Source: a virus
Reading direction: 5' to 3' (one strand)
Length of the DNA: 64,000 bases
Virus record (IMG/VR): IMGVR_UViG_3300030107_001446
Coordinates: 135,259-199,258 of that record
The position numbers and the translations under genes were made by a program. Shown piece by piece: positions 4,830-41,100 of the stretch. Positions within the stretch are counted from its first letter, which is position 1. Every line of letters begins with the position of its first letter. Below the pieces are notes generated by a model, which did no database searches, was not told the origin of the DNA, and saw nothing but the letters and a program-made list of their open reading frames with translations.

Positions 4830-4830
4830 A

Positions 4831-5341: not shown

Positions 5342-5369
5342 TAACAATCTCACCACACATGCAAGGGAG

Positions 5370-17100: not shown

Positions 17101-20100
17101 ATGGATTATTGGTTTCTGACCAAGTTACCATATATGGTGCTAACCCAGTTGTCTATAATGGCACATTTACGGTTACATCACGTATTGACCAATTTACTTT
17201 CTCTTATCAGATAGCAACACCTACAGAGATAATTCCTACTGGTAATATCCTCTTATCTGTTGACTTAAACAGAGGTAAGTCTGATGTAGTATCAATAAAC
17301 AAGGTTGTTAGTGAGTTTACAACTAACATACAGAATGCATTTTTCAACGATAACTATGTTTATGTTGCTGCTTCTGGTTTACCCAACTATAAGATTGGTC
17401 CTTTCACTGGGTCAGCTCTCATCCCAGGAAACCAAAGGAAACTCTTAAGATTCCCCAGAACAGTACAAACCGTCTCAGAAAGACAAGCAGTTGCTCCAGG
17501 TACTCCAATAGGTAGTTGGGTCAACGGTGTTTCTATATGGTCATATAAGTCTCCAGACTATATCCAGTATGGTCCTTTAACCTCTGTTAGTGTTACTAGC
17601 GTTGGTGAAGGATATGATGCAGGTGCTAAACCCAACGTAGAAATCACTGGGGGTGGTGGAACAGGTGCTACTGCTGAAGTTATAGTTAATGGTAGTCTTT
17701 CATCATTTGATGTTATAGAACAGGGTAGTGGATATACAGAATCACCTTTAGTATCAATCGTAGGTGGCGGTGGTATTGGTGCTACTGCTCAAGCAGTTAT
17801 TACAGGTGGTAGAGTAACAAGAATTTTAGTTGAGCAACCAGGTTCAGGTTATACGACTCAACCCCTAGTTTCTATTACTGGAGGTGGAGGCACTGGTGCG
17901 ACTGCTACTGCCAGTGTCCGTGGACCTATTAGTAGTGTTAGTATTACAAACTTCGGTAGTGGATATACTTCACTCCCTGACATTAAAGTTAACTCTGGTG
18001 AGAATGCTTTAGCACAACCAATCGTATTAAATGGTAGAATCGTTTCTATCGCTATTATCAACTCTGGTAATTCCTATACAACAGCACCTAATGTAATAAT
18101 CAATGGTGATGGATTTGGTGCAATCGCTAAAGCAACTATCGGTACAATTGGTGAAGATAAAGGACGTGTATTAAGCGTTTCTATCACTAACCGTGGAATT
18201 GGGTATACACAAGGTTTAACAACCGTCAGACTCGAAGCAGTGGGTCAATTAGCGTCATTCCAACCTACAGTTTACCAATGGAATAGAAACCTTCAATATG
18301 AATTGGTAGACAAGTTTGATGGTGCAAGTGGATATGTATTTACTGGATTTAACAACCAGTTTGGTGGTGAATATGCTCACCTATCAGATCCTAAAGAATT
18401 AAGATATGTTGTTGGTGATAACGTATTCTTAAATCCTGTTACACAGAATTTCCAAGAAGTTGCTTCTAACTATGACCACTCACCTATTATAGGTTGGGCA
18501 TTTGATGGAAACCCAATTTATGGTCCTTATGGTTACATTGACCCAACTGACCAGAATAGTGGTATCAGAAGGATGCGTACATCCTTCAAATTGAAGACTA
18601 ATGTTGTATTTGATGCAACTACTAATCCTAACCCTTCTAGGGTAGATGGACCTCCTATTTCAACATATGCTGCTGGAACATTTGTTGATGATTACTACTA
18701 TGATTTCCAATCTGGTGATTTAGACCAATATAATGGTCGTTTCTGTAAAACACCTGATTATCCAGATGGCACATATGCATACTTCGTAACTATCGATGCT
18801 AGTGACGCAGGTATTGCTGAATTCCCATATATCGTTGGACCTCAGTTTAACTCACTTCCAGATTCATGGAATATGAATCAAGCAGCAACACAGGAGAATA
18901 TTCCTGATGGAGTTGTCCGTTATAGAGATCCATATACTGATGTTGACATTGATATTGACCGTCAACCAAACCAGACTGCTGATGTCTTTACTACTGAGAT
19001 AGAAGGTTATCCTATCATCTTTGAAATACAAGACTCTAATAATGATGGTTTGATTGATGCTAATGAGCAACAAGAATTATTAGAGATGTCTGAAGAGGCA
19101 ACTCTACAAATATACGATTATTTCCCAAGAGTATCAGCAGAGTCTAGAGTTGATATTGAAGTTGAGACAACTACCCAATTTGAGAATGCTCAGATAGATG
19201 GATTCGTTGTTGAAAACCCAGGTGTTTCATATCAGGTAAATGACACCATATTCTTCGATAATGAAGGAACTGGTGGATTTGGTGCATCTGCTCTTATTGA
19301 ATCTGTTAAAGGACAGAATATAATTGGTTATCAAAAAGAAATGATTGGTGACCGTCCTTACGGTGTAATTACTACTGATATAGAGCATGAATTACGTCAA
19401 CAGGATGAAATCATTGTAAACTCACGTCCTGTTATTGATAATACTAATAAGACGTTTAGAGTTAAGGTTGTAGCGGGTGTTGAGAATATTGCTATAACTC
19501 AATCAGGTACTGGATATAATACAGATATTCCTCCAACATTTGAGTTAATTACTGCATCTGGACAAGATGCTGAGTTATCACTTGTATTAGAGAATACAGG
19601 TCAAGTTAATGCTGTTAATATCATTAACTCAGGTAATGGATACGATTCTGATAATCCTCCTCAGATTAGGGTATCACATCCACAACAATTCAAGAAAACA
19701 AGGTATTGGTTAGCTGAATATCAAGAAGCAACAGGTATAGTTAGTATCAATGATATTGTAACCACTGAAGAGCGTTATACTTATATTTGCGGTAGCATCA
19801 CTGAGACAGATGGTGATATGGCAGCATTCCTTGCCAAGTTTGATGATTTAGGTCAACTTGTTTGGGAAAGAAACCTTCTTCCTCAAAATGCAGGTCAGAA
19901 GAAAGCAGAATTCATTAAGATTCTAGTTGACGCAGTTCCAGAGAATGACCTCATATATGTTGTTGGACATACTTACGATCCAAACAATTCAGCATATAAT
20001 CCTGATATATGGTTAGGTAAGTATGAATCTGGATTTAATAATGCTAATGCACCTGATGGTATTCTTAAATGGCAGAAAGCGATTGCAGGTATCAGTGGTA

Positions 20101-23100
20101 CTACAAGAAGGGATTGGGTAACTTCCTTAGCACTTGACCAGGAAGGTCGTATCTATCTTGCAGGTTATACAGATAGTAATTCCATAGATCCTAACGATAT
20201 GTGGATTATCCAGTGTAACTTGGATGGTGACCTTGTAGAGAAGAGAAAGATTGCATCTGCAACTGATTCTGAAATGATTAATCAGATTCAGTGGATATCT
20301 GATGATAGATTCTTCATGGTTGGTCAAAATGACGAAAATGACGATTGTATCTTCGGTGTATTCTGGTTTGACGGTGCAAACCTTGAAATTGAATATATTC
20401 GCCAAATTCCAACAATAGGTGGATATGTAAGAAATCCTAAATTCACTATTGACGAATATGACGATGTAATCTTAGTTTGGGACGTATATAACGGTGCAGC
20501 ACAGAAATACGATAAAGTCCAGATTAACAAGTTCCCATTATCTACAGCATCTACTTCATGGACATGGAGTAAGACTGTAACCATTAGTGGTGATATTGAC
20601 GCTATTAGACATGCAGGAGTCAATGTAGATAAGTTTGGAAATTATACTTTAGTTACTGATGTAATAGAAGACCAAAATCAGAGATATGCGATATACCACT
20701 ATATCAAGTATGATGGTAACGTAATTAAAGAATCTAAAGTTGATGATACTACAAGTATCGGATTCCAAGCTATAACTCACTCAGTTGATAACTCTGGTGA
20801 TGTAATAATGGTTATTAACAGACAACAGTCTGACCAAATTGCAGCATATAGATTTAATGATGATACTGATTTAGATTACGACTTTACTAAGCAGAATAAG
20901 GCAGCAATGACCTTCTATTCTCCATCTGACGCATCATATGATTCATCATTCTATAAGTATGGCACTGGTGCACTTAAACTAAGTGCAGTTAACCCAGTTT
21001 CTCTTCCTAATCTTAATCTTGAGTCTAAAGAGTGGAGTTTCAGAGCATGGTTATCCATGAATTCTACTGCTCATTCTACAGACCATAAACCACTTCTTTG
21101 GGATATTCTACCAGTAGCAGGTGATTCAATTCAGGTTGAATTGGATGGTGATACTAATAGTGCAAACTATGAGAAAGTTATAATCTATGTAAACTCTGTA
21201 CAGGTTGCAACTTCTCTTCTTGCTACTAACTGGACTGCATTTGCAGGTGCATCATGGGTGCATGTTACATTCCAGAAGAGAGAAGAATCATTAGGTCTTT
21301 ATCAATATGAAGTCTTTATCAATGGTGCTTTAGTTTGTAACTTCCAATCAACATCTGATATCAGTGTTGGTAGTGCAGTCCTTTGTGGTAAGTCTGCTGG
21401 ACCTACATCTAACAATACATTCATTGGATGGGTAGATGACTATGTGATTGATGATGTTGCTCCATATCTTTCTGCTTATAGTGTGCCATCGGCCGAGATT
21501 GAAATTACTACTTCAAACTCTGATTCTGCCTTAGTTAAATTTGACAGAGAGCATACTAAGAGAGGAAGTTATGCACTTAGTGGACTAGACAATTATACAC
21601 AATTAGACTTTACAGATAATGAGATTACAACTACATGGGTTGATGTAGGTCTATCTGCTATCAGTCCATGGATTGTTGGAGCAGGTGGTTTACAGATTCT
21701 TGATATGTCTCAGGTTGTTTCTAACCTGAATCCTGGCACATATACATTTACTGCTAATAAGTTTGAGTATGGTACTAAGACTTCTACAATACCATCTCCT
21801 CTAGGTAAGAAACTTATTATTGAACCTGAAGTAATCAGTAAATTCTATATTAGAGATGCTCTATATCAGAAGATTGATAATGTAATGGAATTCACCTTCA
21901 GTCAAGATATTAAGTTGACTAAAGGATCAATACTTCAACAATTCAACAGCTCTGGTGTTACACAAGCATATGGTACTATTGTAAAAGTTCCAGAAGGAAC
22001 TCTCCTGAATCCTGGATATGGTAATAAGTATCAAGTTGGTAAAATATATGGTACTTTTAATAACACTGACCGTTATAGGACAGTAGCAAATGATATTAAC
22101 CAGATTGAAGGAACTTACTTTAATACAGAAGAAGAGGAATCACCTTGGCAAGCAAATACAGCATATACTGCGGGTGATAGAGTATACGCTGATAAGAAGA
22201 TTTACGAAGTCCAAGCAACAGGTACTTCTGGTACTATTTCATTATCACATACATCTGGTGTTGCTAGTGACGGATTATTAAACTGGGCATTTATTGATGA
22301 TGCAGGTAAGTTTACTGTTGACTTAACACAACATCCATATCCTAGACCTCAGTGGGTTGGTATGGATATGCCAGAATGGTTACCAGATCGCTTATATGTT
22401 GAGGGACAAAGAGTATGGTGGAAACTCAATGTATATGAAGTAGCAGTAGGTGGTGCAGGTGTAGCAGGAACAAATGCTCCTGTGCATGATACTGGTGATG
22501 CATCTGATGGTGGTGTAACATGGACTCACGTTTCTACTGAGGAAGCAATCAGCGTCTATAGTAGATTGATGGGTTATGATATGGGCAATAATTATACGGT
22601 CCAGATCATGGAAGTCCATCCTGGTTCAGTATACATTCCAGATGACGTTGTTAGTTTAAATGCAGGAAATATAACTCTTGCTGAAGATGAAAAGAGTGTA
22701 GAGATATCTGGATTTGCTTCAGTTAAAAAGATTCAAGTTACTGCACGTTTAGAGAAAGATATAATTAGGACAAATGCTGTAAGGACAGAATTTGTTTATT
22801 GCACATCAAATACTGCTCATATGTTTAAAGCAGGTGATATCCTCTTTACTGAAGGATTCAGTACTGCACAATTTAATGGTAGTTTCTTTATTGACCAAGT
22901 AATTGGCACTAGAGAATTTACATTTGCTATTAGAGCAACTGCAAGTAGTGATCCTGCATTTATTAATAATGCTCTTGGTGGTGTTAACATCTATGCAAAA
23001 CACCCAACATTAGAGTTTACTAGAAATCATCAGTATGTCTTTGACCTATCTGACTCTTCTAACTTTGGATATTACTTATCATTCTCTCAAGATAACCAAT

Positions 23101-26100
23101 ACAAACTAGAATACTCATTTAACAACATTGAAAGAAATGGAACTCCTGGTATTGCAACAACACCAGCTCCAACAGTTCAATTCTCTGTATTAGGTGAAGT
23201 TACTAATATTTCCTACTACTTTGACCCATCAAGAACTGGTGCTGATTCACCAGTAGGTACAAACAGTTTTATTGATGTCATTAAAACTCCTTTCGATGGT
23301 AGATTTACTATTTCAGAAGTACCAACAGATACATCATTCAAATTCCCACTCCTTAAGGAACCTGAAAGGACTAATGCTGAGGTTGGAGAAGATTATCTAG
23401 GTAATGATTATTCATACTATTCAACTACATCTGTAAGGGCAGTTGGACCTATTAATACAATTCAACTGGTTTCTCCAGGTGGATTCTATCAGAAGTTACC
23501 TATCATTAGTGATATTGCATCTTTCAGACAAATTGAGAAATGTGTAGTAGTAGATGGAGGTACTGAATATGCTCCAGGTGTTTACTATGATGTGCCTATT
23601 GCAGGAGATGGTGAAGGTGCTAAATGTACTGTTACTGTTGAAGTAGATGAGGAGATTGGATCAGGAACTATTACAGGTTGTGCTGTAACTGACCCAGGTA
23701 AAGGTTATACAACTGCATCTATTGATATTGACGCTATACCTGGAATATTAGGAGCAACTCTTGCTGGATCTGGTGGTAGTGTAAATGTTGTTATTCCATC
23801 AGAAGGTAGTGGTGCATCTGTATTCTTAACAGGTACTAATATTGGTAAGATTAAGAGATTAAAGAATAATGAATTTGGTTTCGGTTATTCACATGACTAT
23901 ACCTTAAAACCAGAGATTACCTTCCCTGTTAACTTACAACTCTTTAATACTTCAATACTAAGTCAGATTACCATAACTGATCCAGGTTCTGGATACTCAT
24001 CAACTCCAGCTGTTGTAATCGAAGGTGGTGGTGGATCTGGTGCTGAAGCAGAAGCAATTATTAAGAATAATAGATTATCTGAGATAATAATCAAGAATCC
24101 AGGTGCAGGTTACTCATCTGAACCAACTGTTACTCTTAAATCAGAATTTAACTACGTTGTTAACTTAGACCTTAATTATCTACAGTTTAACTTCCCACAT
24201 GGTATTACGTCAGGTGCAGAAGTTACATTTAGGGCAGAAAACGTAGGATCCACAACTGGCGAATTACCAAAACCATCTACCGCAGGTTTAACCAGTTTGG
24301 TGGCAAATCAGGTTTACTATGCTATTGCTGGTACAGCAGCAGGACTAGAGCCTGACCAATTAAGATTCGGTCTTACTAAAGCATCTGCATTAGCAGGATC
24401 TTACATTACCTTCTTAACACAAGGTAGTGGTCGTCAAGTCCTTTTAACTGAGGTATTCGGTGGTAAAGCAACTGCTGTTGTTGAAACTTCTAGATTCCTT
24501 GAAGGTGAAGATGTATACCAAGGTTCTAATGTTGAAACTGCCACTGCTATGGGTACAGTTTCTACTAACACTGGTTGGCAGATAGGTCCTAAGATTCTTA
24601 AGATTGTTGATTATACTGGTGATTGGGCAGTTGGTGAGTCTGTAACAGGTACTATTTCTAAAGCATCTGGTGTTATCGATAACTTCTCGATTGCACGTGG
24701 TGTGTTAAATATCGGCTCCCTAACGAAGACACCAGGCCGATTTATTGATGACGTTGGTAAACCATCTGAGATTGTCCAGAAGATTCAAGATAGTTTCTTC
24801 TATCAAAACTTCTCTTACGTTGTCCAATCACAAATTCCTATCACAGAGTGGAAGTCTCAAGTATTAGAGAATAACCACCCAGCTGGTTTCAACATGTTTG
24901 GTCAGTTACAACTTACTGGTGGTAAGGACGTATCTGGACGTAAGATTGGTACTGAGTTTACTAAGAAAGTTAATATTAACAACTATAGTAATGTAAACCA
25001 GATTACATCATTTGGTGCTGCTCAACCAATCTATACTGACTACAACAATACTGAGGTTCTTTTCCGTAAGAAACGTCTAACATCTTCTGAGGAAATCTTA
25101 ACTTCAATCGTTAAGAAACTTGATAATTTTGAGGATCAGTTTGATGGTATTAAGAAAGCATTCCCAATTACTGTTGAAGGTGAGCAGGTAATCGTTAAGC
25201 AAGATCAGTTGATGATTACACTTAATGGTGTTATTCAGGCTCCTGGTATTTCTTATCAAGTTGTTGGTGGAGATTTAGTATTCTCTGAGCCACCAAGACC
25301 TCCTTCAAAAGTTAACTATAGAATCATTGGTGTTACACCTACTCCAATATACAGAATTGCTCTTTATAGTCCTGGTGGTAATGCAAACTATGGTATATTC
25401 CCAACTATAGGTCAGCAAGTACAAGGTGAATTCTCCGATGCTGTTGGAACTGTTATAGATTCAGGTACTAATCATATTGATGTTATCAATATCGTTGGTG
25501 GACCATTCCAACTTAACGAAGAGATTGTTAGAGGAGAAATCTTCTCAGCATTAGTCGAAACAGTTACTCAGGTTAATAGTGATACTATATTTGAATTTGG
25601 TGAAGCAATTACTAACCTTGAAGGTGATACTGCATATGTTGAAGAGACAAACGTAGATACTGATGGTAATGTTACAGATAGACTTGTTGTAAGTAAGACT
25701 TCAGGTACTCCAAGATTTGAAACTGGAATATATGACTTAAGACTTAACGAATACATTTATTCTGCATCATCTAAGATTGCAGGACAGATTACATACACTG
25801 CACCTTACTCAGACCCAATTAATGACGAAGTTGTTGATGAATTAATCATTAACCGAGGCACAACTTTCTTCGGACTACTATTTGAGCGTTTATTAAGTCT
25901 AACAAACCCAAATATCATTTTAGACAATATTTCGCAATCTTCAATCACTCCAACTAAGCTTTATGATTCTTCAAACAGAATTAACGCTGATTTCCTTGAT
26001 TTTGAAGAAGTTAGGACTACAGAAGTTACATATTCACAATTAGCGAATGGTGCTTTTGCAGATGGTGATATTATCCGAAATAAGAAGACTTTCTACGGAA

Positions 26101-29100
26101 ATCCAATTTCTGTCTTCCATGGAAACGCTGCAAACCGTTTCTTAGATGGTGGACGTAATATTGCGAATAATAAGCAAGAAATCATCGATTTTGCTGAAGC
26201 AAGCATTGCAATAGACTATCCAGACTATTATTTCCCATCTGACGTTATTACTAACGCTTGGAGTCGATTTAAAGATGCTTACAGGATGATTCAGAAGAAT
26301 AAGGCATTAATCGTCGGAATGGCGTTTGATGACATGAAAACTCAATTCCCTTCATCCTCAATTCCTTCAGATGCGAAATGTAAGCGAGATATTGAATATT
26401 TCGTAGATGCAGTAAGTATTGACATGTATGCAGGTGGAAACCGCTATACACGTAAATTCTGTCAGCAATATTTCAATGAGGCTGGATCTTTCACTTATAT
26501 CAATGCTCAAGCAACTGAGACCAAATGGGCTTACGAAAAAGCAAGAGATAGGATGAAAGTTGCTATTGCTAATGGATATTCAGGAACTATTAGTGCAGCA
26601 AACTCTGGAGACTCTTGGGTTGCATATCAAGACTTAACAATCACTGCTGACCCATCACCAACCAATCCTTACGGTACTGCAGGAACTAACACTTCAAATA
26701 CTGATTCAGACAACTGTACTGATGTCCAATCTGCTATTGAGACATTACATGAAATAGTTGATGAAACATTAACTAATGGATCTCTAACTGAATTACCAGT
26801 TGAATCTGGTGGTACATATTCACCACACCAAGAGAAGTGCAGAAGAGACCTTGGATATTTCATTGATGCTATTTCTAATGACCTTAAGACTGGTGGTAAC
26901 TATCAAACTGTCCTATTCACAAGATCATTCTTTGATGCTTCTGGCACACCTCTAACTAACGGAATTGTTGGTGAAGAAGCAGAAGCAGTCCATGCATTTA
27001 CAACTGCTGGTACATTGATGCATAGAGCAATTAATAACTTAATGTATTGGAAGGATCTTAGTGGGGTTGGATATAACCTTAATGATCCTACTACTTACTC
27101 TGGTGGTGTTGCTCCTGCTAATACTTACGATGCAAACTATGCATCTGGTAATAATCAAGATATTAACAACTGTGCAAACGTTAAGTCCTATATTGATACG
27201 CTGAAAGCGATTGCTACGACTGCAATGACAGCAGGTAACTTAACTAACGTTAATAACCTTGCATCCATCACAGATGGTACATTCCAAGATGGAGAAACAA
27301 TTAGGACAACTAAATTTGCATATAAGAATAGAAGTCGTGGATTATTCGCTCTTGGAGATACAATCAAGGGTATTACATCTGGTGCTGTATTTGAAGCAAT
27401 CGGTGCTAATGCAGGTTTAAAATGGATATTTGCTTCTAATGTTACTGGCACATTCCAAGATGAAGAATGGATAACCAATTCTACTTTAACTGCAACAAAT
27501 TGCACCCAAAGTGTAATTGTTAAGAAAGCAGAATTAGTAGGAGATAAATCTGTCTACAAACCTTCAAATGGACTTCTAACACAAACAGCAAGTGAAGATT
27601 TTGCTTTTGGAACTGGAGATTTCACAATCCAATCATGGATACGTCCTGCTGCTAATGTTGGCACACAATACCTATTTGACTTCAGAAGATTATCTGCTGC
27701 TCAAGGTTTAAACATTAGAATGGATGGTCAAGGTCTTAAGGTCTATAATGGCACAACCTTGATGGTAAGTGGTAGTGGTGATTTTGCAACAACTGGTACT
27801 TGGTATCACATCGCTATTGTAAGAAATTCTGGTGTTACTCAGGCATATGTTAATGGTGCTCAAATAGGGTCTAACTACGTTGACACTAACGATTATCTTT
27901 ACAATGCTCCTCATATTGGGTCTGACTTTAACCAGTCATCTCATTGGACTGGACATATTGATAATCTTTGCATTAAGAAGGGTGTTTGTGATTTCATTAC
28001 TGGATTTACTCCTCCTACTCAAGTTGACTTTGCTGAAGATAATATTGTATTAGGTATCGATGGTGAAGGTCCATTCATTGCTTCTACTACTGAAGTATGG
28101 GCAACATACACTGGACAGAGAACATCATCTACAACTGCTAAGAGAGTTGATTATGATGGTTTAGCACTTATTGCTTCTGATATTGATACTGGTAGAAAAG
28201 AATTAAGAGATTGTGCTGAAATAATCGACCTTAACGGTGCATGGATTGCTGAGGAAGCAGTTGGTCGAATGAAGGCAGCATTCGTTGATTTCACCATTAG
28301 AGGTGACGATCCAGGAAATAATAGTTACGGTGGTACTAACCTTTGTATTAGGGATACTAAAGATTATATTCTTGGTGCTCTAATTAAAGACTTACAAGAA
28401 GGTGGAGATTTCCATACAATCTATACTGCAAGGACATACCTTACTACAAGTGGTAAATTAGACCATATCACAGATGAGATTCTACAATCTCTCTATACAT
28501 GGAATGAGGTATTTAAACTTTGTGAGACTGTTATTACAACAACATCTACTGACCTATCAGGTGAATATAGCACAAGATTGAGAATACCTAATAACTTCTC
28601 ATCTCCTGCATCTTCTACTGTTACTGATGAGATTAAACTATTAGGTGATAATTTACTTAAAGTTGTTGCTCCTAATGACCAAAGATTCAGAGAAGGTGGA
28701 TTCCAACTTTGGAAGAATAGAGATTATATTGCTGAAGAAGTAGCAGGATATATTCAAAACAAATATCAACAGGAGATTAATGAAGTAACATATGACTTCC
28801 TTGAAATGCCTGGATATGGTCAACCCTACTGTGAACGTGATATCAAACAATTTATTCTTCCTGCTGTGATGGCTGATTTGGTCACAGGTGGTACATATCA
28901 GACTGAAGCAGTTATTGACAAGTATCTTGATAGTCAGAATAAGGTAATACATGTTGATGAAGAATTAAACCCAATGCTTGATGCATTTGAGTATTGTAAG
29001 ATGCTCTGCATGAAGGCAGTTAATAACTTACTATTATCAAGTGGTGAAGCAGCTGCTGAGTTGGGTGTCCCAACATGGGTACAAGAAGAGTATTATGCAC

Positions 29101-32100
29101 CTCAGTGGACTGCTAGAGCAGCATATAGAGATGATACTATTGTCCTTGATACAGAAGGATATCCTCAGGCAGGAACTAGACAAAACAATGACAGATATCT
29201 TGATGCTGCTGACCTAATCTGGAAGAATAGACACGTCATCGCTAAAGAGTGTGTTAGCACTATGAATGACTTGTCCAAGTATGAGAATCTAAACATTCCT
29301 GGTGGACATGTTAACTGTGAAGATGATGTTTTAGATATGATTGAAGCAATGGTACATGACCTTCGCTTTGATTGTAACGAGAAGACATATGATGCTGCTG
29401 CATTATACATTGAGACTGAAAATAACTCACTTAAGCATATTGAGGGTGAGTGGGAAGCATCTATAACTGTAGTTAAGATTCTAAGAGATATTACTTCTCT
29501 AATAATGCGTAATGCATTTGGTAGAGATTATGAAGAAGGTGGATCCCCTGATCAGAAACCAGTTGAATCTTATGAGCAAAATCCAAGAATTGACCTTTAT
29601 AAGAATTGTGGTGATGCGATTGATGGAAACATCAGATATATCGCAGAGCAAGCAGTTGCAGCTGGATTAGTCCAATTCCCTAACCTTAATATTCCTGGTG
29701 GTCCTATTAACTGTGTCCATGACGTTACTGATATTCTTAGAGCATTAGTATTCAACATCAAGTATGGTGGTAATAACTGGTTACAATATTCTACTGAATT
29801 CTATGCAACATATTCTGGTAATTTAGACCATGTTACTAATGCACCTACTGAAACTAATTGGATAATGAATAAAGCACGTGATTTTGCAATCCGTGCAATG
29901 AAGGGTCAGATTATTACTAATGAAGCAGGACATGTAGTAGACCAAAGATTCTACGATGCAGTGCCAAGACCTACTACAACTATGGTCACAACCAGTGTAT
30001 TAACTGGTGCACCTGTTACTGACAATTATAATAATCTTGTAACAAGATCATTCAAGTTTGGTGAAGATAAGATTTCTACAACTGATACTGGCACAGGTAT
30101 CATACCTGATGAAGATGCTGTATTCAGTGTTGTAACTAAACTACCTTCTAGTCCAATAGATTGCTGTCTATTTGAAGCAGGTGGTGGTACATCTGGTGTA
30201 TGGTTTGGTATCAGAGATGGTGGTACATGGTTGAGATTAAGAGCTGGTAATGGTACTAACTCATATACATCTGGAGCATCATATACTGCTGATACTGGTC
30301 TTGCAATGCTCGACCTACAGATTAGTAACCTAACACAATACTTTGATGATGGTGACCATGAATTAGTATGGCAGATTGTTATTGGTGGTAACCAAACAAC
30401 TGGTGCAGGTAGTGTTACTCTTTGGATTGATGGTCAACAGATTGGACAAGCAACAACACCTGGTGGTGGTTGGACAGGTTTAACTGGAGCATCTGGATTA
30501 TTTGCTAATACTCAGTGGGCAGGATTCGGTGTTTCTAATGGATCTTTGGTAGCAGGAGAAGCAGCAACTATTAACACATTTACAGTTAATGTTGGACCTG
30601 CTCCTACTATTGCATATGATATAACTGCTGCTGATTACGATTCATCTACAGGTGATTTAATATTAAATGTTGGTAATCATAATCATACTCCAGGAACATT
30701 CTTGAGGTTGATTTCTAACTCATTAACATTTACATGTGACCAAGATAATCATGCTTCTAATCACACTTATCCTAGATCTGGTGACCCCGCAGGTAATACT
30801 GCTGTAGAGGTATTAGATGTAGGTAGAACTGAGCATACTGCAACTGCTGCGTCATACGATCCTAACTCAGGAATAATGAATATGACCATAGAGCAGCATG
30901 GTATGACTGCATCAACATCTCATACTGCTAAAGATGCTGCATATGACCCAGATTCAGGTGTCCTAACAATTACTCTTGATGACCATGGATTTAAGACAGG
31001 TGACCAAGTTAAGATTCATAATGGATCTCTAATCTTTACATGTGCTCAAGATAATCATGCTACTAAGCATGGATATCCTAGACAGAAAGATCCAGCTGGT
31101 GACCAGTGGTTATTAATAGAAGAAGTTACACCAAATACATTTAAAGTTAATGTTGGTGCTACACCTAAAGTTGAGTATAATGTTTCCGATGCAGTATATG
31201 ACCAAAATGATGGTGAATTAACTCTTGATATTGGTCAGCATCGTTTCGTTGGTGCTTCAAATCATGTTGCAACATTTGCTGAATATAATGCAGATAAGGG
31301 AACATTAAAACTAACAGTATCTGGACATGGAGTTATAGTTGGTGACCAGATTCAGATCATGGAAAATTCCATGACATTTACTTGCTCAATGGATAATCAT
31401 TATACTAACCATGTATATCCAAGAAGCACTGACCCATGTGTAGGTCAATGGTTAGATGTTGTTGAATCTGATATTCCTGGTGGAACATTTACAGTTAACG
31501 TAGGTCAATCTCCTATAGTTGGTTGGGATCCATCTGATGCAACATATAATTCTGAGACAGGTCATTTAACACTTGAAATTGGCAATCACTCTCTTGCAGT
31601 TGGTACTCATGTGAAACTATCACAAGAGTCATTAAACTTCACTTGCTCAATGGATGACCATGCAACGATTCATAGTTATCCTAGAGATACAGACCCAACT
31701 CATAATGAACCAATACAAATTCTTGCAACCACTGCTACTTCTATAACAGTACCAGTTGGTACAACTCCTACAGTTCAATATACTCCAACAAATGCAACAT
31801 TTACTCCTGCTGATGGTCTATTAGAATTAACATTAGATAGAAAGCATACATTCCGTCCTGCTACTATTCATAACATTTCTGGTGGTGAATATAATGGATC
31901 TACTGGAATGATGAGAGTTACAGTTGCTGACCATGGATTCTCTAATGGTGATTTTGTTAAGATTGCTGATGGTGGAATTACATTCTCATGCACAATGGAT
32001 GGCAATGCATCTAACCATGCATATCCAAGAGCATCAGACCCATATTCTAATAAATGGTTAGCAGTTAGAAATGCATCTAAAGATTCATTCGATGTATATG

Positions 32101-35100
32101 TTGGTAGAACACCTGAGTTACCATTTACAATAACTGATGCTACATTTGTACCTTCTACAGGTCATATGAGAGTATGGATTGGTGACCATGATTTAGTTGC
32201 AGGTGATTATGTAAGAATGACAGAAGAGTCAATCGGATTTACCTGTTTATTAGATAATAATATTTCCAAGAAATACTATCCTAGGTCATCTGGATCTAAC
32301 TACGTTGGTAACGGTGGTGCTGACCCATTCTGGAATAAGAGAATCCAGATTGCATATGCAGGTATGCCTTTAACTGCTACTACTGGCACATCATATAATC
32401 CTACAACTGGAGTTATGAGCATCTCTACTGATGCTCCTCATGGAATGAGTGACGGTGATGAAGTTAAGATTGCAACTGATTCATTAGTATTCACTTGTTT
32501 AGAAGATAACAACCAAACAAATCATACTTATCCTAGAGCAACTGATCCATTTAATGATAGATGGATGAGAGTTTCTAATACATCAACATATACATTTGAT
32601 GTCCAAGTATTGAGTTATGCTCCATCAACTAACTCAACAACTCATACATTTGTCCAAGCAAATGTAAATGGAATCACTAAGAAGGATGGCACAATTACTC
32701 TTGATGTAGGTGCATCCTCAGATACTACTGCTCATACTTACACTGCAACTCCTGGTTTAACTCCAACTGCTATTACTCATAATCCTGTAACAGGTATTAT
32801 GGATATCACAGTTGAAGGACACAAATTAATGGCAGGTGACTTTATTAAGATTGCTGATAATTCATTGACATTTACTTGTGCAATGGATAACCATGCATCT
32901 GACCATGTATATCCTCGTCCTGCTGACCCAGCTAGTGGATCATGGTTGAAAGTCTTAACTGCTACTACTGATACATTTACAGTACAAGTATTAAAAGATA
33001 TACCACAGAGTAATACTACAACTCATCTATTCAAGTCTGCTGTTGCTGAATGTATTACAAAATCTGTTATTAAAACTGGTGGTGTATATGACCACACTTA
33101 TGTAACATCTTCTGTTGGTGCTTTACGTCATGCAGGTGATAGTGTAAGACTTGCTCCTGATGCATTGACATTCCGTTGTGATGCTGATGGTCAAGCATCT
33201 GATCATGTATATCCTAGATCTGCTACTACACAACATACACCTTCAGATGTTGTATATAATCCTAACACTGGTAACCTTAAGTTTACAGTTAATAATCATG
33301 GATTCTTACCACATTCATATGTCAAGATTGCTGATAACTCTCTAACATTTACATGTGCTAAGGATGACAATGCTACTGGACATTTATATCCAAGACCTAC
33401 TGACCCTGTAAGTGGTAAGTGGGTGATGATTAATGATGTAAGTGCGAATACATTCACTGTTGAAGTATTAGATGTAATTCCATCTACAAATACTACAGTC
33501 CATACATTTGTATCTGCAACTTCTAACTGCATTACACATAAGAAAGACCACTTCTATGATACAAATATTCCTATCTACGAAGTAGGAATGACATCATCTA
33601 CACCTTCTAATGTTTCTTATAATCCAACATTAGGTGAGATGGTTGTTACTGTTAATAATACTCTTACTGGATGTAATAAGATTACACCTGATAGTGCTAC
33701 CTATTATCCTGCTACTGGTATTTTAAGAATACAGATGAATGGTCATCCTGTTAAGAATGGTCAAATGGTTTGGTTACAAGATGGAGCATTTACATTCCGT
33801 TGTGACGAAGATGGTCAAGCATCTGATCATGCTTATCCAAGACCTTCTGATCCTGCAAGTAATAAATTCCTTAAAGCATTTAATGTTGGCACAAATACTA
33901 TAGATGTTAACGTAGGATACTTTGAAGGACAAGGTGCAATTTCTAACCAAACAACTCATGTATTCCAGAGTGGTGCAATGAATGGAGTATGGCATGCAAA
34001 TTCTTATGTAATGTTTGAAGAGAATGCTGTTACATTCCAGTGCACTAAGGATAACAATGCAACTAATCATTCATATCCTAGACCTTCAGATCCATCATGG
34101 AATAAGTGGTTACCTGTATTCAATACTTCCTCTGGACAGTTTAGTGTTAAGGTTGGTAAGTCTGGTATTAATGACATTTACGATCATACTTTCGTTTCCT
34201 TTGCTACTGATGGTCTTAAGACACAAACTGGCACTATTAAATTAGATGTTGGTAATGGTCAAATTACAAACCCAACAACTCATGTATTCCAATCTGCTAA
34301 TGCTAATTCTTTAATTGGTGGTGGTGAATATACACACGACTTCAAATCAACAAATTCAACATACACTGTAACGGATGCTAACTATCTTCCTGCTACAGGT
34401 ATAATGACTCTTACAATTCCTAATCATGGATTCCAAGATGGTGAGAGTATTAAGATTTCTAATGATTCATTAGTATTCACATGTCTTCAAGACGCAGGTG
34501 GATCTGAGCACAGTTACCCAAGATATACAGACCCTGTTGCAGATAAATGGATTAAGATTCATAATTGCACAGATGATACATTTGATGTCCAAGTACTAGA
34601 GAATATTCCATCAACTAACCAGACTCTTCATACATTCAAACGTGCATCTGCTAATGGTGTAACAAGAGCAGTATTAGCAACTGGTGGTAACTACACTCAT
34701 AAGTTTATTGCTCCTGCACAATTAACTCCAACTAACGCAGTATACGATCCATCAACAGGTGTGATGACTGTAACTGTTACTAAGCATGGATTAAAGAATG
34801 GCACAAGAATTAAAGTTGAAGATGGATTCGTAACATTCACATGTGGTCAAGATAGTAACCAAACTAATCATTCATATCCTAGGGCATCTGACCCATTTAG
34901 TGATGAGTGGATGAAGGTATCTAACGTCACTACTGACACATTTGATATTCAAGTATTATTCAATATTCCATCTACAAATACTACACCTCATACATTTGTA
35001 TCTGGTAAACCTAAGAGTATAACTGTTGCTACTTTAATGAAGGGTAATGACAGTATTAAGATTGCTGACAATGGTTTAACATTCACATGTAGTAAAGATG

Positions 35101-38100
35101 GTAATTCTACTGAGCACACATATCCACGTCCTAATGTTGACCCATCATGGAATAATTCTCTAAGGATTGTTGATGATGGTGTATCACGTCATACTCCAAC
35201 AGATGCTTCTTATACTGCTACAACTGGAGTCCTAACATTAACAGTACCTAATCATGGTTGGTCTAATGGTCAGTATATTAGATTAGAAGATTATGCATTA
35301 GATTTAACTTGCACCATGGATGATGGTAGTGAGAATCATGCATATCCTAGAGGCACAGATCCTATTAGTAATAAGTGGTTAGAAATTTCTAACGTAACTG
35401 CATCTACATTTGATATTAATGTAGGCACTACACCTTCTGTCCAGTATACTCCTGCTGATGCTTCTTATGACCCATATTCAGGTCATATGGAATTGAATAT
35501 TGGTGCTCACCCACTTAAGGTTGGTCAAAGTGTTAAACTTGCTGATGGTGCTGTTACCTTTAGTTGTGACATGGATATGAATGCATCTAACCATGCATAT
35601 CCAAGGACAACTGTTGACACATTTACTCCAACAGCAGGAGCATATGATGGCACAACTGGTTATCTAACATTAACTCTTAATGGTCATGGATTTGATAACG
35701 GATCATTAATTAAGATTGCAGATAATGCTCTTACTGCTACCTGTGAAATGGATGGTAATTCATCAGGTAAGACATATCCAAGATCAACAGATCCTATTAG
35801 TGGAAAATGGAAACCTGTAGAGAATGCAACTGAAAATACATTTGATATTTTTGTTGGTAAGACAGAATTCAAGAGTTTCGATCCACAGCAAGTAGATTAT
35901 AATCCTGCTACAGGTAATATGGTAATCACTGTTGGTCCTGACCACGGTATTACAACTGCACATAGTGTTTACATTAATCGTGAATCAATGTGCTTCACTT
36001 GTGCACAAGATGGTCATGGAAGTGACCACTTCTATCCACGTCCTAATGGTAGTGGTGGTGCATCTGGTGATGACCCTGCATATCAAGAGGCTGTTGCTGT
36101 AACTGCTGTTGATGATAGCACTATAACAGTTAATGTTAACCCATCACCTTCTGGAGCATCTAATCATGCTCATATCTTCAAACCTGCTGTAGGTTTAACT
36201 CCACAGAATGTGACATATAGTGGTGTATCTGGTGTGATGACTGTTACCTATGCAAGTCATGGCATGATAACAGGTGAGCAGATTATGTTTGAGGATAATT
36301 CCTTAATCTTCACATGTGGTAAAGATGACCATGCTACTGAGCATGCTTATCCAAGACACGGTGACCCTGCAAGCAACAGATGGTTAACAATTACAAGAAT
36401 TGATGACAATAGATTCACTGTTAAAGTTTTAGATGAAACTCCTTCTACTAACACTTCTGCTCATACATTCAAGTATGCTAAAGCAGGTGCAATGAAGAGA
36501 GGATCTATCAGAGCAGGTGGATCATTTACACATACATTTACAACATTCGCATCAGGTGGTGTATCTCATAAGAGAGATAGAGCATATGACCATTCTATAG
36601 AAATTAAGAAAGTTGGTCATGGTGAATATACTGCTACAGGTGCAACATATAATGCTGAGACAGGTGTCCTACAATTAACAATTAATGGTCATCCATTTGC
36701 TAATGGTAACATGATTAAGTTGAAGCCTAATTCACTAATCATGACTTGTGATATGGATAACAATGCTACTAAGCACTCTTATCCTAGAAAGACAGATTTT
36801 GCTTATGATAGATGGTTAGAAATTTCCAACAAGCAAACAAATACTATTGATGTTAACGTTGGTAAAACACCTCGTGCTAACTACCTAGTTTCTGCTGCCA
36901 CATTTGACCCAACATCAGGTGACATGGAACTTACTATTGGTAAGCATGGATATCATGGTGGCACAACACATACAGTAACTAATGGTACCTATGATGCTAT
37001 AACTGGTAAGATGGTTATCACAGTTCCTGATCATGGATTCATTATTGGCGATAGAGTTAAGTTTGTAGATAATTCAATTTCATTCAAGTGTGGTATGGAT
37101 GGATATGATGTTGTTAAATCTTATCCAAGACCAACTGACCCTGCACATAACACATGGTTAGAAATTGATGATATAACACTTCATACATTCTCTATTAATG
37201 TTGGTACATCACCTAAGACAACTCATAACGTAACTAACGCTAATTACAATCCTACCAGTGGTGTAATGGAATTAACCATTGGATCACATAACTTGGATGT
37301 TGGTGATAGTATCAAACTTAAGCCAAATTCATTAACATTTACTTGTGATTATAATGGTGATGGTCAGACAACTCAGAAGACATATCCTCGCTCATCTGGT
37401 GCTGCTACTGCAAACGGTAAAGACTATGCTTATGATGCAGCATTGGTTATTACTGCTAAGACAGGAACATCAATCACAGTTAACGTTAACGGTGGTCAAG
37501 GTGCTATTACTGACGTAACTACTCACACATGGGCTGGTGGAACATCAGCAGGTGCTGTTATGTCTGGTGGTGGTTATGCACATCAATTCTGGTCTGCTGC
37601 TGCAAACGGACTTCAGAGAGCAAACGAATCAGTTTACATTGAGAATGAGTCATTAGTATTCAAGTGTAATAATGATGGTTATGCTACTGAGCACAAGTAT
37701 CCACGTGCTAATGGTCAAGGTGGTGCTACTGCTGATGACCCATATTATGATACTTCAGTTCCTATAGTTTCTGTAGGAGATGAAACTATTACAGTTAACG
37801 TTGGTAAATCTTCAGATACATCAACTCATCTATTTGTAAGGTCTGAAAATGCATTCGATGTTTCTGGTGCATCCTTCGTACCTGGCTCAGGTGAATTAAC
37901 AATCACAATGCCTAGTCATCCATTCACCTCAGGTGATAAGGTTATGCTTAAGGATCAAGGATTCACATTCACTTGTCAAGAAGATAATGACCAAACAACT
38001 CATTCATATCCTAGAGCATCAGACCCTGCTTCAAATAATACTTGGTTGACAGTTACTGTTGTAGATGCATCTAACTTTAAAGTTAACGTTGGTACTTCTT

Positions 38101-41100
38101 CTAACGTTACAACTCACACATGGGTATCATCATTACCTGGTGCTGTTATAAGAGGTGTAATTAGAGGTGGTGGAGTTTATGCTCATACCTTCGATAGTTT
38201 CGTTGATGGTGGAGTACAATGGAAGAATTCTACTATTAGTCTTGACGTTGGTGAGTCACCAGCTAAAGGATATGGTGTTAGTGGTGCATCCTTTGTACCT
38301 GCCACAGGTCTATTGACAATGACAATCGGCAACCATCAGCTTAAGACTGGTATGTATGCCAAGATTGCTAACAAGTCAATGGTATTCCGTTGCGACCAAG
38401 ACTCACAGCAAACTGACCACGTATATCCACGTCCTAATGGATTCAGTGGTGCTACAGGTAATGACCCTGCATACAATAATAGAGTAGAAATTACTTCTGT
38501 ATCTGCTGATAGTATTACAGTTGATGTTGGTACATCTTCTAACACTACAACTCATTATTTCCAAAACGCTAATAACGTTTACACACCAACTTTTGCATCA
38601 TATGACCCAACATCAGGTTTAATGAATATCAGCATTCCTGGTGACACTAAAAACGTTACAGGTGCTGCATACAACCCAACTTCTGGTACATTAGAATTAA
38701 CAATCGGTGCTCATACTTTAACTACAGATGATGTAATTAAGTTGAAGCCTAATTCATTAACATTCACTTGTGATTATGGTGGAGATGGAAACGTAACTCA
38801 GAAGACATATCCTCGTGCACAAGGTGCATCTACTTCTGATGGAAAAGATTATGCATATGATACTGCATTAGCAATTACTGCTGTAGACCAAGCAGGTGGC
38901 ACAATCACAGTTAACGTTAACGGTGGTCAGGGTGCTATCACTGATACTACTACCCATACATTCCAATCTGCACTTGCAGGTGCTGTTATCGTTGGTAACG
39001 GTTTCATAGATGGTGAGTATATTAAGATTGCTGATGATGCATTTAAGTTTACTTGTGATAAGGATAATAACGTTACATATCACGATTATCCAAGAGCATC
39101 AGATCCATCAAGTGGAAGATGGTTGAAGATTTCTAACTGTAATGTTGATACATTCGATGTCCAAGTATTACAAAACGTACCTTCCACAAACACAACTGAC
39201 CATACATTTGTATCTGCTGTAGCATCTAGTATTCAGAGGTCTGTTGTTACTATCGGTGGTGAGTATAATCATACATTCGTATCTGCTGTTAGTGGTGGTG
39301 TAACTGCGGGTGGAAACTATACACATACATTTGCATCTGCTAAGCCAAATTCACTACACAGACAGAGTGGTAAGATTACAGTTAATGTAAATGTTGCTGC
39401 TACTGCTGACCTATATGACCATACATTTGTTAGTGCAATTCCTGGTGCTGTTATAGCAGGTGGTAATTATATGCACTCATTTGTATCTGCTGCCACAGGT
39501 GGAATTGAGAAAGCAAATTCATATATCTTGATAAAAGATGGTGCTCTTAACTTCACATGTGATTTAGATGATTATGAAACTGAGCACTTATATCCTAGAG
39601 ATACAGACCATGCAAGTAATGAATGGTTGGCAGTATCTAATGTCACTGTGGATACATTTGATGTCCAAGTATTGAAAGGAGTCCCATCATCATTCTTAGG
39701 TAAGCATACATTTGTATCTTGTGCTGAAGGTGGTATATGGAAGCAAGACGGTACTATTAAGATTAACGTTGGACCTTCACCTGCGGGTAATACATATGCT
39801 CACAGATTTGTAAGTGCTAACTCTGGTGCTTTAATACAGGGTGGTAACTATAGACATAACTTTGTATCTGCTGCATCTGGATGCATTAAGGTAACAAATA
39901 GTGGTGCTACATTAACACCTACTGATGCATACTACGTCCCAACAACAGGTAAGTTAACTCTAACTGTTGCAGGTCATAGTTTAACAACTGATGATACTAT
40001 TGAAATTGATACTAACGGATTAACATTCACATGTAGTCAAGACCAGAATGCAACTAACCACACATATCCTCGTGTGACAGACTATGCTGACGGTAAGAAA
40101 TTACATGTCCAAATGTCTAACTCATGGGCATGGCCTACTCAAGATTTGAAATACTTCAGGTCACGTCAGGTATCACAAAACTACACAGGTACAGAAGGTG
40201 CTCCAGTAGAAACTGAGATTACACAACTCATACAATTTGTAACTGATGGACTTACTAATCCTAACACAGTTGCAAGTAGGTCTTACATCATGCCTACTGT
40301 ATGGCCTGTTAAGTATACTCCAGAAGTTGTAGTAAGAGATCTTACTATTCAATATGATACAGCACAGGGTGGACAAGGTAACCAAGGTACATGGAATCAA
40401 ACATGTCAAAACGTTGCTTCAACAATCGCTACTGTTGCTGATATCTACATTCAAACAATAGCAGAGGCAGCAAATAATAATGTTAACTACTTAACTTCAA
40501 ACGTTACTAAGACATTCCCATTCAATAGCAACACAATATATCAAGATGGCACATGCTATAACGTAACATCTGCTATTGATACGTTGTTTGATATTATGAA
40601 GCATACACTTGGTGCTGGATCAAATAACTCCAAGAATATCGCTAACATGATACTCTTCAATCAGCAAGCAATAGCAGGAAGAGCATTTGGTGAGACACAG
40701 GTTAACTGGCCTACAACTAATCTAACTATTGACTTTGCTAATGATGTCCTTGCAGCAGTACGTTATGACTTAGTAACTGGTGGTAACTCAGGTGCATTTG
40801 AATTAGCACAACAGTGGTTTGACGGTGAAGGTAACTTCATAGCATTCCCAACCGTAGTTAGGACACACATCTTATATTGTTTAACAAGAGTTAGAGAATA
40901 TATTAAGAGTGTTATGTATCTTGTTGGTGAAGATGCTGTATGGAATAATTACGATGTATATGTCCCAGAAGGAAGACTTGAGTGGAATCAAGAAGCAGTT
41001 GAATTTATGGTTGACTCTTCACTTAACCCACTTGAATTTGCTTTAGAGAGAGGAGAATTCCCAACAGAAGCAAGAGTCCAGTGGATTGCATCTAGTGATG

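What the first reader, a model, noticed from the sequence alone, without database searches (positions are those of the whole stretch)
30600..40110. Thirty Cys/His repeats nested inside one another like brackets, implying a branched protein architecture
Each unit has three parts: an opener (Y-x-P-x-T/S-G-x-L/M-x-L-T...H-G), a core (G-x2-I-K-I...F-T-C-x2-D-x5-H-x-Y-P-R-x2-D-P...W...F-x-V-x-V-G) and a closer (T-H-T-F-V-S-A...G). The parts do not follow in simple tandem order. Openers are doubled with no core between them (about 30830-30960, 31170-31330, 31770-31940). Cores resume with no opener (about 33075-33230). Closers stack consecutively (about 34215-34340 and 39240-39520: GGEYNHTFVSA..GGNYTHTFASA..YDHTFVSA..GGNYMHSFVSA). 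This is the pattern expected if whole domains were repeatedly inserted into loops of other copies, giving a tree or brush rather than a rod. Such recursive domain insertion in a virion appendage is not something I recognise as described. The function (multivalent adhesion, metal capture, steric shield) is inference.
Basis: partly seen in the sequence, partly recalled or inferred. Interest (0 to 1): 0.85.

Follow-up and report, generated by a model that had tools for sequence, protein, structure and literature searches.

The report
Self-nested beta-barrel tree in cyanophage protein
A 9,914-residue baseplate-region protein of a marine T4-like cyanophage carries 30 copies of one small beta-barrel domain plugged into each other's loops about ten levels deep, deeper than the six-level record I found published for any protein.

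Summary
One ORF (14175-43919, +) holds exactly 30 openers, 30 Cys/His cores and 30 closers between aa 5485 and 8633. Spacing inside a unit is fixed, but the order of parts is irregular.

- A stack parser (opener pushes, core needs an open opener, closer needs a finished core) consumes the array with 1 conflict and 1 unit left open. Shuffles give about 19 (0/20,000; 0.00016 under a stricter control).
- Maximum depth is 10.
- All five stray "g" strands fall where the parse returns to one of the five units that lack that strand.
- Both tail-less cores regain their tail after the inserted units.
- Orthologues gain or lose whole units inside loops.
- In two AlphaFold2 models, closers whose predicted partner lies inside the segment have the strand's 10-residue block at pLDDT 78-94. 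Those whose partner lies outside have 29-52.

The unit resembles the E1 FCCH and endosialidase barrels (Z 7.3-8.0).

Long-range closures are inferred, since no coordinates were available. Function is unknown; I guess multivalent host-surface binding.

This scan has already noted the same build in other cyanophage genomes. I found no paper on it.

The parts
14175..43919 (+). Giant ORF, 9914 aa, virion structural protein (phrog_701), in the gp7 position after gp25-like and gp6-like genes
   Evidence: PMC1079782
30627..40073 (+). Array of 30 barrel units (aa 5485-8633)
30561..30596 (+). Pre-array last-strand motif TFTVNVG (aa 5463-5474). Candidate 'unit 0' whose closer would be the otherwise unmatched closer at 39837-39890
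   Evidence: inference
30627..39821 (+). Unit depth 1: opener aa 5485, core 5507 with short tail, g strand at aa 8525-8533, closer aa 8543
30846..39725 (+). Unit depth 2: lone opener aa 5558, core aa 8450, closer 8511
30933..39494 (+). Unit depth 3: opener 5587, core 5609, closer 8434
31188..39440 (+). Unit depth 4: lone opener 5672, core 6959 with short tail, g strand aa 8398-8406, closer 8416
31275..34718 (+). Unit depth 5: opener 5701, core 5723, closer 6842
31536..34355 (+). Unit depth 6: opener 5788, core 5810, closer 6721
31791..34301 (+). Unit depth 7: lone opener 5873, tail-less core 6321, orphan tail aa 6456-6471, g strand aa 6685-6693, closer 6703
31881..33113 (+). Unit depth 8: opener 5903, core 5925, closer 6307
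32136..32753 (+). Unit depth 9: opener 5988, core 6010 with short tail, g strand aa 6171-6179, closer 6187. It is contiguous in L012 and L019, where the inner unit is absent
32385..32663 (+). Unit depth 10: opener 6071, core 6094, closer 6157 (contiguous)
32772..33044 (+). Unit depth 9: opener 6200, core 6221, closer 6284 (contiguous)
33246..33521 (+). Unit depth 8: opener 6358, core 6380, closer 6443. It sits between YPR and the tail of core 6321. Its Cys..His loop holds a further unit in L014-L019
33540..33587 (+). Orphan tail KKDHFYDTNIPIYEVG (aa 6456-6471) of core 6321
33609..34205 (+). Unit depth 8: lone opener 6479, core 6610, closer 6671
33696..33977 (+). Unit depth 9: opener 6508, core 6529, closer 6595, inserted between opener 6479 and core 6610
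34374..34649 (+). Unit depth 6: opener 6734, core 6756, closer 6819
34734..35009 (+). Unit depth 5: opener 6854, core 6876, closer 6939
35202..39344 (+). Unit depth 5: opener 7010, core 7032, closer 8384
35457..39290 (+). Unit depth 6: opener 7095, tail-less core 7117, orphan tail aa 7466-7481, g strand aa 8018-8026, closer 8366
35637..36551 (+). Unit depth 7: opener 7155, core 7176, closer 7453
35892..36191 (+). Unit depth 8: opener 7240, core 7266 (long tail), closer 7333
36207..36482 (+). Unit depth 8: opener 7345, core 7367, closer 7430
36570..36617 (+). Orphan tail KRDRAYDHSIEIKKVG (aa 7466-7481) of core 7117
36639..38204 (+). Unit depth 7: opener 7489, core 7511, closer 8004
36894..37847 (+). 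Unit depth 8: lone opener 7574, core 7819, closer 7885
36981..37601 (+). Unit depth 9: opener 7603, core 7625, closer 7803
37236..37544 (+). Unit depth 10: opener 7688, core 7710 (long tail), closer 7784
37866..38135 (+). Unit depth 8: opener 7898, core 7920, closer 7981
38283..38573 (+). Unit depth 7: opener 8037, core 8061, closer 8127
38592..39221 (+). Unit depth 7: lone opener 8140, core 8280, closer 8343
38661..38975 (+). Unit depth 8: opener 8163, core 8186, closer 8261, inserted between opener 8140 and core 8280
32685..32711 (+). Returning g strand DGTITLDVG, completes the short-tailed unit opened at aa 5988
34227..34253 (+). Returning g strand TGTIKLDVG, completes the unit with core 6321
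38226..38252 (+). Returning g strand NSTISLDVG, completes the unit with core 7117
39366..39392 (+). Returning g strand SGKITVNVN, completes the unit with core 6959
39747..39773 (+). Returning g strand DGTIKINVG, completes the unit opened at aa 5485
39837..39890 (+). Closer with no open unit left (aa 8555-8572). The only conflict in the parse; it may close the domain before the array
39924..40073 (+). Unit 30: opener 8584 and core 8607. It is not closed inside the array and the chain runs on into the C-terminal region

Best explanation
The array is one self-nested tree of about 30 small beta-barrel domains.

Unit anatomy. Each unit has these strands: an entry strand, a-b (the opener hairpin), c-d-e (the core with the F-T-C..H-x-Y-P-R loop), f-g (the tail) and h-i (the closer).

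How the chain runs. The chain often leaves a barrel before it is finished. It builds one or more complete barrels in that loop, then returns to supply the missing strands. Units therefore close in last-in, first-out order.

Insertion sites seen:
- b-c loop (lone openers)
- d-e Cys..His loop (in orthologues and homologues)
- e-f, after YPR (tail-less cores)
- f-g (short-tail units)
- g-h (units whose closer comes later)

The result is a branched body about ten levels deep. Its two ends meet at one neck on the giant protein, which sits in the gp7 position of the baseplate gene block.

What is shown:
- The grammar and its statistics.
- Whole-unit gain and loss inside loops among orthologues.
- The barrel fold and its limits.
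- Four local nests in this window.

What is inferred:
- Physical closure of the long-range pairs, which lie up to about 3,000 residues apart.

Function is a guess, at about 30%: a compact multivalent surface module for reversible binding of host cell-surface glycans. The basis is that the closest structural match from a phage is the endosialidase beta-barrel. From my own knowledge, that barrel binds sialic acid.
For: Grammar and counts:
- Counts are 30/30/30. The parse gives 1 conflict plus 1 open unit, against a shuffle mean of 19.7 and minimum of 4 (0 of 20,000).
- The stricter control gives 0.00016, and the reversed order scores 22.
- Orthologues L014 and L015 have 31/31/31 and a score of 2 (0 of 3,000).
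- The separate array L022 has 9/9/9 and a score of 0 (p 0.017).
- 23 of 26 distant homologues score below their shuffle mean (summed 75 against 136). P0002 reads (((U))) six times.

Openers and cores:
- Numbers of lone openers and opener-less cores correlate across 35 homologues (rho 0.72; equal in 20; permutation p 0.00025).
- All 16 arrays with equal counts have the opener first, against 6.3 expected.

Returning strands and tails:
- The five extra g strands (aa 6174, 6688, 8021, 8401, 8528) each fall where the parse has returned to one of exactly five short-tailed units.
- The orphan tails at aa 6456 and 7466 follow the inserted units of the two tail-less cores. They match contiguous short tails in P0002, P0004, P0043 and P0049.

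Natural insertions and deletions:
- A 118-aa unit sits inside the Cys..His loop in L014-L019.
- The same kind of insertion is present in L003 and absent in L002 and L005.
- The unit at aa 6071 is absent in L012 and L019, which leaves its host contiguous as f-g-h.
- A 333-aa deletion removes aa 8028-8358; by the parse this span holds two whole sibling subtrees.
- P0038 has three levels.

Structure search:
- Ranges run from the entry strand to strand i: model 1 residues 157-264 and 306-415, model 2 residues 25-143.
- The flanking lone openers (pLDDT 82-92) are therefore the only a-b hairpins available for cores 6610 and 8280.

Confidence pattern:
- pLDDT values are means of the 10-residue blocks that hold each closer's H-x-F strand.
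- Closers with their partner inside the segment span 64-94, and the block holding most of the strand is 78-94. The lowest case, 6703 (60 then 78), has its opener outside the model.
- Closers with their partner outside score 29-52.
- pTM is 0.54 and 0.47.
Against: - No coordinates or contact maps were available, so no long-range opener-core or core-closer contact was seen directly.
- AlphaFold2 left the stacked closers unmodelled (pLDDT 26-44 by 10-residue block across aa 8362-8451). That would also fit elements that fold only in an oligomer.
- Token calling rests on short motifs. The opener model was trained on this window.
- Some homologue arrays parse no better than shuffles (L024 p 0.44; P0005, P0008).
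- The shuffle controls do not correct for shared ancestry among orthologues.
- One closer (aa 8561) and unit 30 stay unmatched.
- Nothing tested bears on function. Pfam and solved-structure sequence searches give no significant family for the unit.
Confidence: 0.72

Rival explanations
1. The nesting is only local. A few units truly sit inside others (cores 6321, 7117, 6610, 8280). The remaining lone openers and stacked closers are free-standing hairpin spacers between tandem barrels, and the long-range bracket match comes from how blocks were duplicated.
For: - AlphaFold2 gives no structure for the stacked closers.
- The stacked closers have an 18-23 aa period of their own.
- Lone openers at aa 5558, 5672, 5873 and 7574 carry their own His-containing strand and a 29-aa period.
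- The composite opener-unit-core recurs as a block, 40 times against 12.9 expected.
Against: - It does not explain the 30/30/30 counts, or that each stack size equals the number of open units.
- It does not explain the five-of-five match of g strands to short-tailed units.
- Adjacent, similar closers differ in pLDDT according to where their parsed partner lies.
Confidence: 0.18
2. It is an intertwined trimeric fibre. Openers and closers pair between three chains, as in T4 fibre repeats, so the irregular order reflects inter-chain packing and not nesting within one chain.
For: - Sullivan et al. 2005 (PMC1079782) class the >15-kb homologues as tail-fibre-like fusions to gp7.
- phrog_5342 'tail fiber protein' matches the units.
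- Monomer models leave the closer stacks unfolded.
Against: - Monomer models fold complete barrels, including closers, at pLDDT around 90.
- The best structural matches are globular single-chain barrels.
- The bracket statistics need no second chain.
- T4 gp7 is one copy per wedge (my own knowledge, not tested here).
Confidence: 0.06
3. The bracket match is an artefact of motif calling and analyst choice.
For: - The motifs are short.
- The thresholds were chosen on this window.
- The hand parse came before the script.
Against: - The tokens were called, before the parse idea arose.
- The scripted caller reproduces the hand parse and transfers to orthologues and to L022, L027, P0002, P0004 and P0006.
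- The insertion/deletion evidence does not depend on tokens.
Confidence: 0.04

Closest known systems
Si3 insertion of cyanobacterial RNA polymerase beta' (RpoC2), with recursively inserted hybrid-motif domains
   Same: Copies of one small beta domain are inserted into loops of other copies, with recursion and branching. A survey of 2.7 million domains reports it as the deepest case, at six levels (PMC13114784).
   Different: - It is a different protein and setting: an enzyme, against a phage baseplate-region protein.
- The present case has about 30 units and depth 10, against 8 domains and 6 levels.
- Whether the folds are related was not tested.
- Here five different loops serve as insertion sites.
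Beta-barrel domain of phage endosialidases (PF12195; phi92 endosialidase 4hiz_A residues 256-338)
   Same: The structural match is Z 7.3-7.8, rmsd 2.2-2.3 A, 78 residues aligned. There are weak Pfam hits. From my own knowledge, this barrel is itself an inserted domain in its host.
   Different: - The sequence score is far below the Pfam cut-off (19.8 against 35 bits).
- The Cys/His Y-P-R loop and the closer strands are specific to the cyanophage unit.
- A Z under 8 may reflect only a common barrel arrangement.
First catalytic cysteine half-domain (FCCH) of ubiquitin-activating enzyme E1 (4p22_B, 9mc4_A, 2v31)
   Same: It is the top structural match: Z 7.6-8.0, rmsd 2.5-2.8 A, 76-78 residues aligned. 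One unit hits PF16190 at E 0.0081. From my own knowledge, it is also an inserted domain.
   Different: There is no significant sequence relation and the biology is unrelated.
Giant gp7-fused tail-fibre-like proteins of Prochlorococcus myoviruses (P-SSM2 orf113, P-SSM4 orf080)
   Same: Genes over 15 kb in the same genomic place, described as fusions to the baseplate wedge initiator gp7 (PMC1079782). About 340 cyanophage records hold the N-terminal part.
   Different: That paper reports repeats but no nested domain architecture.

Membership tests
Recursive domain-insertion architecture (A1-B-A2, as in RNAP Si3) | A host domain's sequence is interrupted by a complete domain | tested here: met
   - Orthologue insertions and deletions inside the Cys..His loop and the f-g loop.
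- Orphan tails.
- Structure-search ranges.
Recursive domain-insertion architecture (A1-B-A2, as in RNAP Si3) | The inserted domain itself hosts further insertions | tested here: met
   - Three levels shown directly in L014-L019 and in P0038.
- Depth 10 by the grammar parse. That depth is inferred and not seen in 3D.
Recursive domain-insertion architecture (A1-B-A2, as in RNAP Si3) | Same fold family as the Si3 hybrid motif | not tested
   No direct comparison was made.
PF12195 End_beta_barrel | Pfam gathering score (35 bits) | tested here: not met
   19.8 bits. 4 of 19 units hit, best E 0.028.
PF12195 End_beta_barrel | Same barrel fold | tested here: inconclusive
   4hiz_A: Z 7.3-7.8, rmsd 2.2-2.3, 78 aligned. 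A Z under 8 is a common level.
PF16190 E1_FCCH | Sequence match at the Pfam threshold | tested here: not met
   1 of 19 units, E 0.0081.
T4 gp7 baseplate wedge initiator | Gene position after gp6 in the baseplate block | tested here: met
   PAAR, gp25-like (phrog_261) and gp6-like (phrog_219) genes lie upstream, and wedge and connector genes lie downstream.
T4 gp7 baseplate wedge initiator | Sequence relation to gp7 | tested here: inconclusive
   - Matches to phrog_2885 and phrog_708 'baseplate wedge subunit'.
- A weak match to P-HM2 'gp7'.
- PMC1079782 calls the homologues gp7 fusions.
phrog_701 virion structural protein | Profile match along the protein | tested here: met
   E = 0 on all three thirds.

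The most novel reading that the evidence does not exclude
All about 3,100 residues of the array form a single, fully nested and branched tree of 30 barrels, 10 levels deep (11 if the preceding domain is its host). It hangs from one two-stranded neck. This would be the deepest domain-in-domain build known. It would have to fold by finishing barrels in reverse order of their start, and it grows and shrinks in evolution by whole units dropping into or out of loops.
Probability: 0.65. Interest if true: 0.85.

Novelty: new variant of a known kind. Interest (0 to 1): 0.8.

Why it matters
- It would extend recursive domain insertion from a six-level curiosity in one enzyme to a general way of building very large virus-particle proteins.
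- It gives a simple sequence grammar that predicts the topology of hundreds of unannotated cyanophage proteins.
- It raises a concrete folding question: how do barrels whose strands lie up to 3,000 residues apart fold?
- It changes how these 'tail-fibre-like' giants should be pictured: compact branched bodies on the baseplate and not long rods. That bears on how abundant ocean phages meet Prochlorococcus and Synechococcus.

Tried and rejected
- Sequence search of the unit profile against solved structures found nothing meaningful (best hit iota-carbonic anhydrase, E 0.0049, no stretch passing).
- The N-terminal 1500 aa gave no solved relative at E<=0.01, so no direct link to T4 gp7.
- Foldseek on the whole 546-residue model gave only non-specific multi-domain matches.
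- Mean-field covariation on 360 unit sequences (effective number 263) was too noisy to read strand pairings. It was not used.
- A regex count of split cores in homologues was too noisy because core variants lack YPR. It was dropped.
- Single-unit fragments all aligned to the first unit of a multi-unit query. I used shifted long segments instead.
- Complex prediction, lone opener 6479 (34 aa) against closer plus core 6610 (81 aa):
  - ipSAE 0.44 (runs 0.47, 0.44, 0.09); best of 3 controls 0.01; verdict 'weak support'.
  - That mark was reached by 58 of 80 solved complexes and 2 of 110 mismatches. At 0.60 or under, it was reached by only 7 of the 80 solved complexes and by both mismatches that passed.
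  - Run agreement was at least 37% of contacts, and partner pLDDT at least 45.
  - My own alignments were used. I do not count this as evidence.
- Literature searches for a description of nesting in cyanophage gp7-like proteins found none.

Full report
**What and where**

The window comes from a T4-like cyanomyovirus. The nearest isolate is P-TIM40 at 77% nucleotide identity.

The finding lies inside one ORF, 14175..43919 (+), 9914 aa. It matches phrog_701 'virion structural protein' along its whole length. A PAAR protein, a gp25-like protein and a gp6-like wedge protein lie upstream, and wedge and connector genes lie downstream. The ORF therefore occupies the gp7 position. Sullivan et al. 2005 described homologues over 15 kb as fusions to gp7 (PMC1079782).

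**The observation**

A regex and an HMM each find exactly 30 cores F-T-C-x2-D-x5-H-x-Y-P-R between aa 5519 and 8618.

Spacings are fixed:
- opener to core: 31 aa
- core to last barrel strand: 35 aa, or 43-47 in the long variant
- last strand to next opener: 19 aa
- last strand to closer: 16 aa

- Six lone openers: aa 5558, 5672, 5873, 6479, 7574, 8140.
- Six opener-less cores: aa 6321, 6610, 6959, 7819, 8280, 8450.
- Two cores with no tail: aa 6321 and 7117.
- Runs of closers.

DNA copies are only 60-75% alike. The unit occurs in 671 cluster representatives.

**The fold**

Two AlphaFold2 models were made, using alignments of orthologues plus shifted paralogous segments:
- aa 6195-6740: mean pLDDT 80.6, pTM 0.54.
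- aa 8132-8580: mean pLDDT 67.3, pTM 0.47.

A search without Foldseek gave the same top matches for both models:

| Match | Z | rmsd (A) | Residues aligned |
|---|---|---|---|
| E1 FCCH domain | 7.6-8.0 | 2.5-2.8 | 76-78 |
| phi92 endosialidase barrel | 7.3-7.8 | 2.2-2.3 | 78 |
| Phage FCWL1 head-to-tail protein | 7.3-7.8 | 2.6-2.9 | 77-79 |

These Z values are at the level of a common barrel arrangement. I take them as fold resemblance only. Pfam gives only sub-threshold hits to the same two families.

The matched ranges run from the entry strand through the closer strand h and a short strand i:
- model 1: residues 157-264 and 306-415
- model 2: residues 25-143

The closer therefore belongs to the barrel of the preceding core. 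Cores 6610 and 8280 have no a-b hairpin of their own. The only one available is the lone opener upstream of the inserted unit, and it is modelled at pLDDT 82-92.

**Natural experiments**

- In orthologues L014-L019, a complete 118-aa unit lies between F-S-C-K-K-D and x-H-L-Y-P-R of the unit orthologous to aa 6358-6450. The window and other orthologues have that loop contiguous.
- L003 has a unit in the same loop of the orthologue of core 7625. L002 and L005 have a plain core there.
- L012 and L019 lack the unit at aa 6071. Its host then reads as a contiguous f strand, g strand and closer.
- A 333-aa deletion in eight orthologues removes aa 8028-8358. By the parse, this span holds exactly two sibling subtrees, the unit at aa 8037 and the unit at 8140 with its insert.
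- Distant homologues show units inside the Cys..YPR loop (P0028, P0030, P0090, P0112). P0038 shows three levels.
- The two orphan tails (aa 6456-6471 and 7466-7481) are highly conserved. They match ordinary contiguous short tails in other proteins.

**The bracket test**

I treated the opener as a push. A core is allowed only on an open opener, and a closer only on a unit that already has its core.

Results for the window:
- The scripted caller finds 30/30/30 tokens.
- It parses the array with one conflict (closer at aa 8561) and one open unit (unit 30).
- Shuffling blocks gives a mean of 19.7 and a minimum of 4 (0 of 20,000).
- Permuting only the closing labels among their 20 places gives 0.00016.
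- The reversed order scores 22.
- Maximum depth is 10.

Each opener-less core arrives exactly when a lone opener is on top of the stack. The closers stacked before such a core equal the units still open: 2, 3, 1 and 4.

Other arrays:
- Orthologues behave alike. L014 and L015 have 31/31/31 and a score of 2.
- L022 has 9/9/9 and a score of 0. P0002, P0004 and P0006 also parse cleanly.
- 23 of 26 homologues beat their shuffle mean.
- Lone openers and opener-less cores correlate across 35 homologues (rho 0.72).
- The opener always comes first in arrays with equal counts (16 of 16).
- Some arrays parse poorly (L024, P0005, P0008).

**Two checks that were not built into the parser**

1. Five extra last-strand motifs (aa 6174, 6688, 8021, 8401, 8528) are not tokens. 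Each falls exactly where the parse has just returned to one of the five units whose tail lacks that strand (cores 6010, 6321, 7117, 6959, 5507).

2. AlphaFold2 confidence follows the parse. Values are the means of the 10-residue blocks that hold each closer's H-x-F strand.

   | Closers | Where the parsed partner lies | pLDDT |
   |---|---|---|
   | 6284, 6443, 6595, 6671, 8261, 8343, 8511 | inside the modelled segment | 64-94; the block with most of the strand is 84-94 |
   | 6703 | core inside, opener outside | 60, then 78 |
   | 6307, 6721, 8366, 8384, 8416, 8434, 8543, 8561 | outside | 29-52 |

**Limits**

- No coordinates were available, so long-range contacts are inferred.
- The closer stacks could in principle need an oligomer to fold.
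- The shuffle tests ignore shared ancestry.
- The pre-array strand TFTVNVG (aa 5469) and the unmatched closer at aa 8561 may be the two halves of a host 'unit 0'. That is a guess.

**Function**

Nothing was tested. The invariant residues are Cys, Asp, Y-P-R and Asp. The His is replaced by Lys in four units, so a fixed Cys/His metal site in every unit is doubtful.

I commit, at about 30%, to multivalent binding of host-surface glycans by a compact branched body on the baseplate.

**Novelty**

Recursive insertion is known. A survey of 2.7 million domains reports six levels in Prochlorococcus RpoC2 Si3 as the extreme (PMC13114784). I found no paper on nesting in phage gp7-like proteins.

Earlier notes of this scan report the same build in other cyanophage genomes, with depths of 6 to 11. 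I read them after my own parse.

Noticed in passing
window about 26200-30500 and 40400-41500 (aa about 4000-5440 and 8750-9100): Helical repeats of the form D-x3-F/Y-I-x-A-x3-D-L-x2-G-G-N occur before and after the barrel array, for example at about aa 8790. The whole array, plus a ConA-like domain, therefore looks like one insertion in a helical scaffold. Pfam 'Phycobilisome' hits aa 4034-4102 at 28.2 bits (cut-off 22.2), but no single stretch passes.
   Followed up: partly
L014:8607-10595, L015, L016, L018, L019: These orthologues carry one more barrel, inserted in the Cys..His loop of the unit that is contiguous in the window (aa 6380-6407). That makes a directly visible three-level nest.
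   Followed up: yes
window 14175-24074 (aa 1396-1542, 2273-2425) and aa 4474-4600: Other domains in the giant protein: YHYH (PF14240, E 1.3e-28) and two ConA-like Laminin_G_3 matches. The next gene (43928-45916) shares the YHYH-type region.
   Followed up: no
window 10922-11455: A PAAR-motif protein (phrog_281, E 3.9e-21) lies just before the gp25-like and gp6-like genes.
   Followed up: no
window 50930-58264 and 58848-63998: Two more very large ORFs (2444 aa, and over 1717 aa running off the window) follow the baseplate genes. I did not check whether they carry the same barrel units.
   Followed up: no
window aa 6022, 7188, 7637, 7722, 8197 cores: In five cores the His before Y-P-R is replaced by Lys, while the Cys and Asp stay invariant. 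This bears on the separate note that proposes about 30 Cys/His metal sites.
   Followed up: partly
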